DNA from: Escherichia coli O157:H7
Lineage (GTDB): Bacteria > Pseudomonadota > Gammaproteobacteria > Enterobacterales > Enterobacteriaceae
Assembly: GCF_013167455.1 (NCBI RefSeq)
Contig: NZ_CP038328.1
DNA length: 64,000 bases
Reading direction: 5' to 3' (one strand)
Shown here: positions 24,346 through 27,673 of the stretch, in pieces
Layout of the letters: the number at the start of each line of letters is the position of its first letter
Position numbering within the stretch: the stretch's first letter is position 1
Translations under genes and position numbers: made by a program
The notes under the pieces: model-generated
Seen by the model: the letters and a program-made list of their open reading frames with translations, nothing else
Database searches by the model: none
What the model was told of the DNA's origin: nothing

Positions 24346-26699
<2,354 letters not shown>

Positions 26700-26945
26700 T
26701 TAATTTACTAAACACGGTTTGGTCAGCATAGCATCATGTTGTGCGAATAAACACCTGCTATTTTAATATTTGTTACAGTGACTAAACACGCTGACGCAGG
26801 GCGGCGAGAAAAAGAGAAGTTACTGGCTGGTGGAGGATTAGGTGGTGAAATAAAAAGGCCGTTGGGTTACTCTTCAGGCAGTTAAATGGGCATTTCTACA
26901 CAGATAATGCGATGTTCAGATTCTGTAGACTTATAATGATAGATA

Positions 26946-27101
26946 ATGATCCGTCTACAGCATGACAAACAAAAACAGATGCGTTACGGAACTTTACAAA
27001 AACGAGACACTCTAACCCTTTGCTTGCTCAAATTGCAGCTAATGGAGTGGCGTTTCGATAGCGCGTGGAAATTTGGTTTGGGGAGACTTTACCTCGGATG
27101 A
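26946..27101 (+). CDS. rseD: rpoE upstream leader ORF (51 codons), stop overlapping the rpoE start
   Basis: ATG 26946 to TGA 27099..27101; reading frame traced by hand as MIRLQHDKQKQMRYGTLQKRDTLTLCLLKLQLMEWRFDSAWKFGLGRLYLG; ATGA overlap with the rpoE ATG at 27098. Too short for the ORF track. Confidence 0.5.
   Translation: MIRLQHDKQKQMRYGTLQKRDTLTLCLLKLQLMEWRFDSAWKFGLGRLYLG
26988..27015 (+). promoter_or_regulatory. SigmaE-dependent promoter (rpoE autoregulated promoter)
   Basis: ggaactt (26988..26994), 16-nt spacer, tctaa (27011..27015); matches the sigmaE consensus. Confidence 0.6.
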
Positions 27102-27673
27102 GCGAGCAGTTAACGGACCAGGTCCTGGTTGAACGGGTCCAGAAGGGAGATCAGAAAGCCTTTAACTTACTGGTAGTGCGCTATCAGCATAAAGTGGCGA
27201 GTCTGGTTTCCCGCTATGTGCCGTCGGGTGATGTTCCCGATGTGGTACAAGAAGCTTTTATTAAAGCCTATCGTGCGCTGGATTCGTTCCGGGGAGATAG
27301 CGCTTTTTATACATGGCTGTATCGGATTGCTGTAAATACAGCGAAAAATTACCTGGTTGCTCAGGGGCGTCGTCCACCTTCCAGTGATGTGGATGCCATT
27401 GAAGCTGAAAACTTCGAAAGTGGCGGCGCGTTGAAAGAAATTTCGAACCCTGAGAACTTAATGTTGTCAGAAGAACTGAGACAGATAGTTTTCCGAACTA
27501 TTGAGTCCCTCCCGGAAGATTTACGCATGGCAATAACCTTGCGGGAGCTGGATGGCCTGAGCTATGAAGAGATAGCCGCTATCATGGATTGTCCGGTAGG
27601 TACGGTGCGTTCACGTATCTTCCGAGCGAGGGAAGCTATTGATAACAAAGTTCAACCGCTTATCAGGCGTTGA
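27098..27673 (+). CDS. rpoE: RNA polymerase sigma factor sigmaE (ECF sigma-24)
   Basis: 191 aa, MSEQLTDQVLVERVQKGDQKAF...; sigma-70 regions 2 and 4. Confidence 0.97.
   Translation: MSEQLTDQVLVERVQKGDQKAFNLLVVRYQHKVASLVSRYVPSGDVPDVVQEAFIKAYRALDSFRGDSAFYTWLYRIAVNTAKNYLVAQGRRPPSSDVDAIEAENFESGGALKEISNPENLMLSEELRQIVFRTIESLPEDLRMAITLRELDGLSYEEIAAIMDCPVGTVRSRIFRAREAIDNKVQPLIRR

What the first reader, a model, noticed from the sequence alone, without database searches (positions are those of the whole stretch)
26946..27101. Short upstream ORF (rseD-like, 51 codons) overlapping the sigmaE promoter and translationally coupled to rpoE
A 51-codon ORF (ATG 26946 to TGA 27099..27101) ends in an ATGA overlap with the rpoE start codon. 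The sigmaE-dependent promoter motif (ggaactt-N16-tctaa, 26988..27015) lies inside it. This layout fits a leader ORF that couples rpoE translation to upstream translation.
Basis: partly seen in the sequence, partly recalled or inferred. Interest (0 to 1): 0.4.

Follow-up and report, generated by a model that had tools for sequence, protein, structure and literature searches.

The report
Known rpoE leader ORF, rseD
The 51-codon reading frame just upstream of the stress sigma-factor gene rpoE is real, but it is the already named and annotated E. coli gene rseD, so the finding is correct and not new.

Summary
There is an ATG-started ORF of 51 codons at 26946-27101. Its TGA overlaps the rpoE ATG (27098) as ATGA. 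GGAACTT-N16-TCTAA lies at 26988-27015, inside the ORF.

The ORF is already known. RefSeq annotates these exact coordinates as "rseD: rpoE leader peptide RseD" (WP_001303621.1, the same protein as in K-12 MG1655). NCBIfam NF033697 scores it at 104 bits against a cut-off of 35. The region is at least 99% identical in 5425 of 5426 complete E. coli genomes. [quoted passage not shown]

My analysis adds four caveats:
- The ATGA overlap follows from RpoE starting Met-Ser (72 of 80 gammaproteobacterial loci have it).
- The peptide shows no purifying selection. pN/pS is 0.81, against 0.63 and 0.87 in shifted frames and 0.011 for rpoE.
- The full-length ORF holds only in Escherichia, Salmonella, Citrobacter and a few other genera, and the start codon differs between them.
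- The sigma-E promoter starts transcription at -75, inside rseD. Only transcripts from the five upstream promoters can be coupled.

Most likely the act of translating rseD matters, not the peptide. Interest is low.

The parts
26946..27101 (+). rseD, the 51-codon leader ORF of rpoE. Other in-frame ATGs lie at codon 12 (26979-26981) and codon 33 (27042-27044).
   Evidence: ORF. (PGAP annotation as rseD, WP_001303621.1). (NF033697, 104 bits against cut-off 35).
27098..27673 (+). rpoE (sigma-E, 191 aa). Its ATG overlaps the rseD TGA as ATGA.
   Evidence: (TIGR02939, 328.7 bits)..
26988..27015 (+). Sigma-E-dependent autoregulated promoter, P6 (formerly P2): -35 GGAACTT at 26988-26994, a 16-nt spacer, and -10 TCTAA at 27011-27015. 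The published start site at -75 corresponds to 27023, inside rseD codon 26.
   Evidence: sequence. (GGAACTT is the sigma-E -35 motif; start sites at -381, -327, -218, -153 and -75). (the -35 is conserved in nearly all Enterobacterales loci).
26932..26937 (+). Perfect TATAAT hexamer within the block GACTTATAATGA, which is nearly invariant across Enterobacteriaceae. I infer it is the -10 of promoter P5, whose published start site at -153 corresponds to 26945, one base 5' of the rseD ATG.
   Evidence: (conservation). (start site at -153). The link between hexamer and start site is my inference.
27080..27086 (+). rpoE Shine-Dalgarno region GGGGAGA. It lies within rseD codons 45-47 (G-L-G-R) and contains one GGA, a CsrA-type motif.
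   Evidence: [quoted passage not shown]
27094..27100 (+). CGGATGA: a GGA motif overlapping the rpoE start codon. This is the likely CsrA site at the initiation codon. Further GGA motifs are at 27044-27046 and 27067-27069.
   Evidence: GGA positions. (literature).
27020..27030 (+). TTGCTTGCTCA, the 5' strand of a conserved complementarity. Bases 27023-27030 would be the extreme 5' end of the sigma-E-dependent transcript, and the stretch is also rseD codons C-L-L.
   Evidence: GCTTGCTC is exact in 25 of 31 Enterobacterales and has at most 1 mismatch in 29 of 31.
27099..27109 (+). TGAGCGAGCAG, the 3' strand of the same complementarity. It covers the UG of the rpoE AUG plus codons 2-4. The synonymous sites of codons 2-3 are invariant in 31 of 31 Enterobacterales.
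25068..26690 (-). nadB, the divergent upstream neighbour that bounds the 407-bp regulatory region.
27706..29776 (+). rseA (27706-28344), rseB (28344-29300) and rseC (29297-29776), the remainder of the operon.

Best explanation
This is rseD, the known leader ORF of the E. coli rpoE operon. On transcripts from the upstream promoters P1-P4 (start sites -381 to -218), and possibly P5 (-153), ribosomes translate the 51 codons. They pass through the sigma-E promoter sequence and through the structured rpoE initiation region, and they terminate at the UGA that overlaps the rpoE AUG. Termination places a ribosome on an opened rpoE start site, so rpoE translation rises. This is translational coupling by termination-reinitiation together with unfolding of structure. 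CsrA binds GGA motifs at the rpoE Shine-Dalgarno sequence and start codon and represses rpoE translation. Transcripts from the sigma-E-dependent promoter P6 start at -75, inside rseD, so they lack its start codon and depend on direct initiation at rpoE. The peptide sequence is probably irrelevant, and what matters is that the frame is translated. Status of each step: the ORF, the overlap, the motifs, the annotation and the conservation pattern are shown here. Translation and coupling are published by others. The unfolding mechanism and the dependence on promoter choice are my inferences.
For: Identity: PGAP annotates rseD at exactly these coordinates, and NF033697 scores 104 bits. The 181-nt region is at least 99% identical in 5425 of 5426 complete E. 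coli genomes and 100% identical to K-12 MG1655.

Literature: the operon is written rseD-rpoE-rseA-rseB-rseC with RseD as leader peptide. rseD was validated by a lacZ translational reporter and detected again by PIRT-Seq. EcoCyc lists it as a leader peptide. CsrA binds at the rpoE SD and start codon. The six start sites are given.

Peptide not under selection: pN/pS is 0.81 in the rseD frame, 0.63 and 0.87 in the shifted frames, and 0.011 for rpoE. Variable columns by codon position are 10/10/8, against 2/1/19 for rpoE.

Start region: opening the rpoE initiation region costs about 11 kcal/mol in every transcript form modelled. The GGAG of the SD ends 12 nt before the AUG.

Chance: an ATG ORF of at least 51 codons ending at this TGA arises in 0.84% of shuffles.
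Against: The primary paper could not be read here, so the size of the coupling effect comes from my memory of its abstract.

rseD has no Shine-Dalgarno sequence; the bases before its ATG are GATAGATA.

In several Enterobacteriaceae genera there is no ATG in the open frame at all (L003, L006, L010-L013). Coupling therefore cannot be a general requirement for rpoE expression.

The distance from the -35 to the ATG changes by a multiple of three in only 3 of 19 changed lineages, so the frame is not preserved.

The apparent amino-acid conservation (NGTL, GLGR, YLG) coincides with the GGAACTT -35, the SD and the rpoE start. It is explained by conservation at the nucleotide level.
Confidence: 0.9

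Rival explanations
1. RseD is a functional small protein of the envelope stress response, for example a fifth regulator of sigma-E, and its amino-acid sequence matters.
For: By my recollection the discoverers raised this possibility. The ORF is intact and annotated in every one of the 40 E. coli genomes sampled evenly down the ranking. NF033697 also matches the upstream ORFs of Salmonella (102 bits), Enterobacter sp. Ag1 (98 bits) and K. pneumoniae (59.8 bits).
Against: pN/pS is 0.81, no different from the out-of-frame controls, and there is no excess of third-position changes. The segment between the -35 and -10 diverges freely: QKRDTLTL in E. coli against RNLSALSH and RNIDTLTC elsewhere. The N-terminus and start codon differ between Escherichia and Salmonella or Citrobacter. 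The frame is broken by 1- and 2-nt indels in other genera. Pfam gives no significant domain.
Confidence: 0.05
2. The ORF is a by-product with no role. A conserved promoter and leader region happens to lack stop codons in the frame that is closed by the unavoidable ATGA.
For: ATGA follows from the Met-Ser start (72 of 80 loci). There is no coding signature, no Shine-Dalgarno sequence, and the ORF is absent or much shorter in many genera. A chance probability of 0.8% is unremarkable across a whole genome.
Against: Translation of rseD has been reported by two independent reporter methods. By my recollection of Yakhnin et al. 2017, loss of coupling lowered rpoE translation by more than half. An ATG-started ORF of at least 26 codons ends at the ATGA in about 12 of 21 Enterobacteriaceae species sampled, against about 4% expected from shuffles. 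That comparison is weakened by shared ancestry.
Confidence: 0.05
3. It is a classical attenuation leader peptide, in which ribosome stalling controls a terminator as in trpL or hisL.
For: It carries the name 'leader peptide' and EcoCyc lists it alongside trpL, hisL and others.
Against: No terminator-like site was found in 26660-27130. The peptide has no run of regulatory codons. There is no Rfam leader family match. The ORF ends on the rpoE start codon, not before a terminator.
Confidence: 0.01

Closest known systems
rseD (ORF51) of E. coli K-12, the rpoE leader peptide (Yakhnin et al. 2017; NCBIfam NF033697; WP_001303621.1)
   Same: The protein and the 181 nt of DNA are identical. So are the position, the ATGA overlap and the operon context.
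   Different: Nothing differs. The window is simply another E. coli strain, 100% identical to O157 strains.
The short ORF upstream of iraD in E. coli, translationally coupled to iraD and repressed by CsrA (Park et al. 2017, as summarised in PMC7652899)
   Same: A short upstream ORF is translationally coupled to a stress-regulator gene, and the Csr system acts on the same leader.
   Different: At iraD, CsrA represses translation of the upstream ORF and so acts through the coupling. At rpoE, the GGA motifs sit on the rpoE SD and start codon (27082, 27096). There is no GGA within about 40 nt of the rseD start, so CsrA acts directly on rpoE.
Classical attenuation leader peptides (trpL, hisL, pheL and others)
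   Same: A short ORF in the 5' leader of an operon, listed with them in EcoCyc.
   Different: There is no terminator or antiterminator and no run of regulatory codons. The ORF works, as far as is known, by translational coupling and not by transcription attenuation.

Membership tests
RseD, rpoE leader peptide (NCBIfam NF033697, equivalog) | Scores above the curated HMM cut-off of 35 bits | tested here: met
   104.2 bits, E = 3.2e-30, profile positions 1-45 aligned to residues 7-51.
RseD, rpoE leader peptide (NCBIfam NF033697, equivalog) | Lies immediately 5' of rpoE on the same strand, with its stop codon overlapping the rpoE start codon | tested here: met
   TGA at 27099-27101 overlaps ATG at 27098-27100.
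RseD, rpoE leader peptide (NCBIfam NF033697, equivalog) | Gene order: nadB (divergent), then rseD-rpoE-rseA-rseB-rseC | tested here: met
   ORF list and RefSeq annotation.
RseD, rpoE leader peptide (NCBIfam NF033697, equivalog) | Same sequence as the experimentally studied K-12 ORF51 | tested here: met
   Same protein accession, WP_001303621.1, in K-12 MG1655. The DNA is 100% identical over 26930-27110.
RseD, rpoE leader peptide (NCBIfam NF033697, equivalog) | The ORF is translated, and its translation raises rpoE translation | not testable with these tools
   Published for K-12: lacZ translational reporter and PIRT-Seq detection. The coupling result is from Yakhnin et al. 2017, recalled from memory because the paper is not held.
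Conserved protein-coding gene under purifying selection | Fewer nonsynonymous than synonymous changes, with variation concentrated at third codon positions | tested here: not met
   pN/pS is 0.81 against 0.63 and 0.87 in shifted frames. Variable columns by codon position are 10/10/8. The rpoE control gives 0.011 and 2/1/19.
Transcription-attenuation leader peptide (trpL type) | An intrinsic terminator and alternative hairpins downstream of the ORF, with regulatory codons inside it | tested here: not met
   No terminator-like sites, no Rfam leader match, and no codon run in the peptide.
CsrA-repressed coupled upstream ORF (iraD type) | CsrA GGA sites over the initiation region of the upstream ORF | tested here: not met
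   The first GGA downstream of the rseD start is at 26988, and none lies in 26900-26945. GGA motifs cluster at the rpoE SD and start codon.

The most novel reading that the evidence does not exclude
Promoter choice may set the translational yield of rpoE mRNA. Transcripts from P1-P4 carry the whole of rseD and are boosted by coupling. P5 transcripts (start site 26945, one base before the rseD AUG, which has no Shine-Dalgarno) would translate rseD in a leaderless-like manner. The autoregulated sigma-E transcripts (start site 27023) lack rseD. Their first 8 nt (CUUGCUCA) are complementary to the UG of the rpoE AUG plus codons 2-3. This complementarity is kept in about 29 of 31 Enterobacterales genera, together with invariant synonymous sites. 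If it forms, it would damp translation of the positive-feedback transcript and could also protect its 5' end.
Probability: 0.2. Interest if true: 0.4.

Novelty: already known. Interest (0 to 1): 0.08.

Why it matters
Sigma-E is essential in E. coli, and too much of it is lethal, so every layer that sets its level is of interest. This layer, the leader ORF rseD coupled to rpoE, was described in 2017 and is now routinely annotated, so the finding adds nothing new. It does show that the first-stage reader can recognise a real small regulatory ORF from sequence alone. The only possible added value lies in the side observations. The peptide is not under selection. The start codon has moved between genera. 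The position of rseD relative to the six mapped start sites implies that coupling depends on which promoter is used.

Tried and rejected
- Neither primary paper is held: Yakhnin et al. 2017 (by DOI and by PMC5686586) and Klein et al. 2016 (PMC5087721). I used secondary sources instead.
- A search for 'ORF51' together with rpoE found no paper.
- The sigma-70 promoter and terminator consensus scan of 26660-27130 found nothing. It does not model sigma-E, sigma-54 or promoters without a -35, so it says little about promoters. It does argue against attenuation.
- An Rfam scan of 26600-27400 at E-value up to 1 gave no match.
- Pfam gave only a non-significant DUF7878 hit at 12.7 bits.
- Single-sequence folding of the leader is not unusually stable (z = -0.98 and -0.60).
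- The conserved helix between the 5' end and the start codon shows no compensatory changes, because its 3' strand is invariant. Its pair probability in E. coli is only about 0.18. It remains a conserved complementarity, not a demonstrated structure.
- The word-indexed protein search found RseD only in Escherichia, Shigella and Citrobacter. That understated its spread, and fetching loci directly showed the ORF in Salmonella and shorter versions in Klebsiella and Enterobacter.

Full report
**1. The observation**

The window holds an ATG-started ORF of 51 codons on the + strand at 26946..27101. It encodes MIRLQHDKQKQMRYGTLQKRDTLTLCLLKLQLMEWRFDSAWKFGLGRLYLG.

- Its TGA (27099-27101) overlaps the ATG at 27098-27100, which opens a 191-aa ORF. 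That ORF is RpoE (TIGR02939, 328.7 bits).
- The neighbours are nadB (divergent, 25068-26690) and rseA, rseB and rseC downstream.
- In 20,000 dinucleotide-preserving shuffles of the upstream 408 nt, an ATG ORF of at least 51 codons ended at the fixed TGA in 0.84% of cases.

The ATGA overlap carries no weight of its own. RpoE begins Met-Ser(AGC), and 72 of 80 gammaproteobacterial rpoE loci fetched here read ATGA.

**2. What it is**

It is rseD.

- A 551-nt query around the ORF matched 5425 of 5426 complete E. coli genomes. RefSeq annotates the same coordinates as "rseD: rpoE leader peptide RseD".
- The K-12 MG1655 record carries the same protein accession, WP_001303621.1, and is 100% identical over 26930-27110.
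- All 5425 genomes are at least 99% identical over that stretch. All 40 records sampled evenly down the ranking carry the rseD annotation.
- The curated NCBIfam equivalog model NF033697 (leader_RseD) scores 104.2 bits against a cut-off of 35.

**3. What the literature says**

Papers held in the library support the following points.

- The operon is written rseD-rpoE-rseA-rseB-rseC, and RseD is called the rpoE leader peptide (PMC8595263; PMC9147696).
- EcoCyc lists rseD among its annotated leader peptides (bioRxiv 10.1101/2020.07.18.207399).
[quoted passage not shown] - rpoE has six promoters, with start sites at -381, -327 (P2 and P3), -218, -153 and -75. P6 is the autoregulated sigma-E promoter (PMC6358824; PMC8103513).

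The primary report is Yakhnin et al. 2017, J Bacteriol 199:e00484-17. It is not held. From my own knowledge of its abstract, it identified ORF51, showed that rpoE is translationally coupled to it, found that loss of coupling lowers rpoE translation by more than half, and renamed it rseD.

**4. Layout relative to the mapped start sites**

This section is my inference and the sequence.

- Position -75 is 27023, inside rseD codon 26. The sigma-E-dependent transcript therefore lacks the rseD start (26946) and the in-frame ATG at codon 12 (26979). Only the in-frame ATG at codon 33 (27042) remains, and it has no Shine-Dalgarno sequence.
- Position -153 is 26945, one base before the rseD ATG and 8 nt after a perfect TATAAT (26932-26937). 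That hexamer sits in the block GACTTATAATGA, which is nearly invariant across Enterobacteriaceae.
- rseD has no Shine-Dalgarno sequence; GATAGATA precedes its ATG.

Full-length rseD can therefore be translated from P1-P4 transcripts by internal initiation without a Shine-Dalgarno sequence. On P5 transcripts it could be translated in a nearly leaderless manner.

**5.

I fetched 80 rpoE loci from one genome per species, and further loci from Citrobacter, Salmonella and K. pneumoniae.

*Where the ORF is kept.* In Escherichia, Salmonella and most Citrobacter, an ORF of 51 to 54 codons is kept in the same frame, but the start codon has moved. Salmonella and Citrobacter start at the ATG inside TATAATG. 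E. coli and E. albertii have one extra base, which puts that ATG out of frame and creates the ATG at 26946. C. amalonaticus has lost both, leaving 40 codons.

*Where it is shortened or lost.* In other genera, 1- and 2-nt indels break the frame between the TGCTTGCTC block and the GAGTGG block.

| Genus or locus | ATG-started ORF ending at the ATGA |
|---|---|
| K. pneumoniae | 31 codons |
| E. asburiae | 35 codons |
| Pluralibacter | 32 codons |
| Pseudescherichia | 26 codons |
| E. cloacae | 21 codons |
| L003, L006, L010-L013 | no ATG in the open frame |

The distance from the -35 to the rpoE ATG differs from E. coli in 19 loci, and in only 3 of them by a multiple of three.

*Coding signature.* Among seven sequences from Escherichia, Citrobacter and Salmonella:

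| Measure | rseD frame | Shifted frames | rpoE control |
|---|---|---|---|
| Pooled pN/pS | 0.81 | 0.63 and 0.87 | 0.011 |
| Variable columns by codon position | 10/10/8 | not computed | 2/1/19 |

*What the conserved residues correspond to.* The conserved amino acids map onto conserved DNA or RNA elements. NGTL is the GGAACTT -35, TL is the -10, GLGR is the Shine-Dalgarno GGGGAGA, and YLG* is CCTCGGATGA. The NCBIfam model also scores the upstream ORFs of Salmonella (102 bits), Enterobacter sp. Ag1 (98), K. pneumoniae (59.8), E. asburiae (47.1), Pluralibacter (42.3) and Klebsiella sp. BIGb0407 (40.9) above its cut-off. It is largely reading a translated, nucleotide-conserved leader.

*Conclusion.* The frame is maintained in the close relatives of E. 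coli. There is no evidence that the peptide sequence is selected.

**6. How it most likely works**

- *Shown by others:* rseD is translated, and rpoE translation is partly coupled to it.
- *Shown here:* the 3' third of rseD is the rpoE initiation region. It contains the Shine-Dalgarno sequence, whose GGAG ends 12 nt before the AUG, which is rather far. It also contains GGA motifs at 27082 and 27096 that fit the reported CsrA sites. Opening positions 27080-27110 costs about 11 kcal/mol in each transcript form modelled.
- *Inferred:* ribosomes translating rseD melt this structure and terminate on the rpoE AUG, which favours reinitiation. Transcripts from the sigma-E promoter cannot use this route.

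Attenuation is unlikely. There is no terminator-like site, no Rfam family match and no run of regulatory codons.

**7. A side observation on RNA structure**

GCTTGCTC (27022-27029) is exact in 25 of 31 Enterobacterales genera and has at most one mismatch in 29 of 31.

- It is complementary to GAGCGAGC in rpoE codons 1-4. Contiguous helices of 8 to 14 bp occur at a fixed position in nearly all of these loci.
- RNAalifold places this helix in the consensus structure. On the 31-sequence alignment, 96% of cells are paired, against 32-51% when the partner strand is slid by 1 to 3 columns.
- The changes seen in the 5' strand keep the pairing (C-G to U-G, A-U to G-U).
- rpoE codons 2 and 3 are AGC and GAG in 31 of 31 loci, although downstream codons vary freely at synonymous sites.
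- There are no compensatory double changes. The helix has a pair probability of only about 0.18 in the E. coli -75 transcript.

It is therefore a conserved complementarity and not a proven structure. Outside Enterobacterales, 29 of 46 loci instead have a local GCTC-N4-GAG[CT] hairpin that encloses the AUG.

**8. Verdict**

Interest is low. The most novel reading not excluded is that promoter choice determines whether rpoE mRNA is translated through rseD coupling. That reading would include a leaderless-like rseD on P5 transcripts and a 5'-terminal helix on the sigma-E transcripts. I give it a probability of about 0.2.

Noticed in passing
window 27020-27030 with 27099-27109; alignment A2 of L002-L031 and L040: TTGCTTGCTCA, which includes the first bases of the sigma-E-dependent transcript, is complementary to TGAGCGAGCAG (the UG of the rpoE AUG plus codons 2-4). 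The pairing is kept in about 29 of 31 Enterobacterales genera, and the only changes in the 5' strand are ones that preserve pairing. There are no compensatory double changes, and the pair probability in E. coli is only about 0.18.
   Followed up: partly
window 27101-27109; L002-L031 and L040 at positions 1504-1512: rpoE codons 2 and 3 are AGC and GAG in 31 of 31 Enterobacterales, and codon 4 is CAG in 29 of 31. Codons 7-15 vary freely at synonymous sites. This points to an RNA-level constraint on the first codons.
   Followed up: partly
window 26932-26948: A perfect TATAAT, nearly invariant across Enterobacteriaceae, ends 8 nt before position 26945. That is the published P5 start site (-153) and lies one base before the rseD ATG. 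rseD has no Shine-Dalgarno sequence, so it would be nearly leaderless on P5 transcripts.
   Followed up: partly
window 26936-26948 compared with L088 (Salmonella), L082-L085 and L007 (Citrobacter), L086 (C. amalonaticus): The start codon has moved between genera. Salmonella and Citrobacter start the ORF (54 codons) at the ATG inside TATAATG. E. coli and E. albertii carry a 1-nt insertion that shifts that ATG out of frame and creates a new ATG at 26946 (51 codons). C. amalonaticus has lost both, leaving 40 codons.
   Followed up: yes
window 27706-28344 (rseA): RseA here is 212 aa. It lacks four residues (QVQE, K-12 residues 165-168) in the glutamine-rich periplasmic part, and it carries Q84E relative to K-12 MG1655 (216 aa). 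This matches the annotation of the O157-like record NZ_CP030767.1.
   Followed up: partly
L033-L081 (Vibrio, Aeromonas, Shewanella, Pseudoalteromonas, Idiomarina and others), positions 1495-1506: Outside Enterobacterales, 29 of 46 rpoE loci have GCTC-N4-GAG[CT] around the start codon. This is a small hairpin that encloses the AUG. Vibrio species with AAC as the second codon have GCTCGAATGAACGAGC, which can form a similar stem.
   Followed up: partly
proteins P0003, P0007, P0011 and P0014: Rare database variants of RseD (one or two member sequences each) are frameshifted near the 3' end. They read on into rpoE or another frame, and one (P0007) gives an RseD-RpoE fusion of 75 aa. They are probably sequencing or assembly errors.
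   Followed up: no
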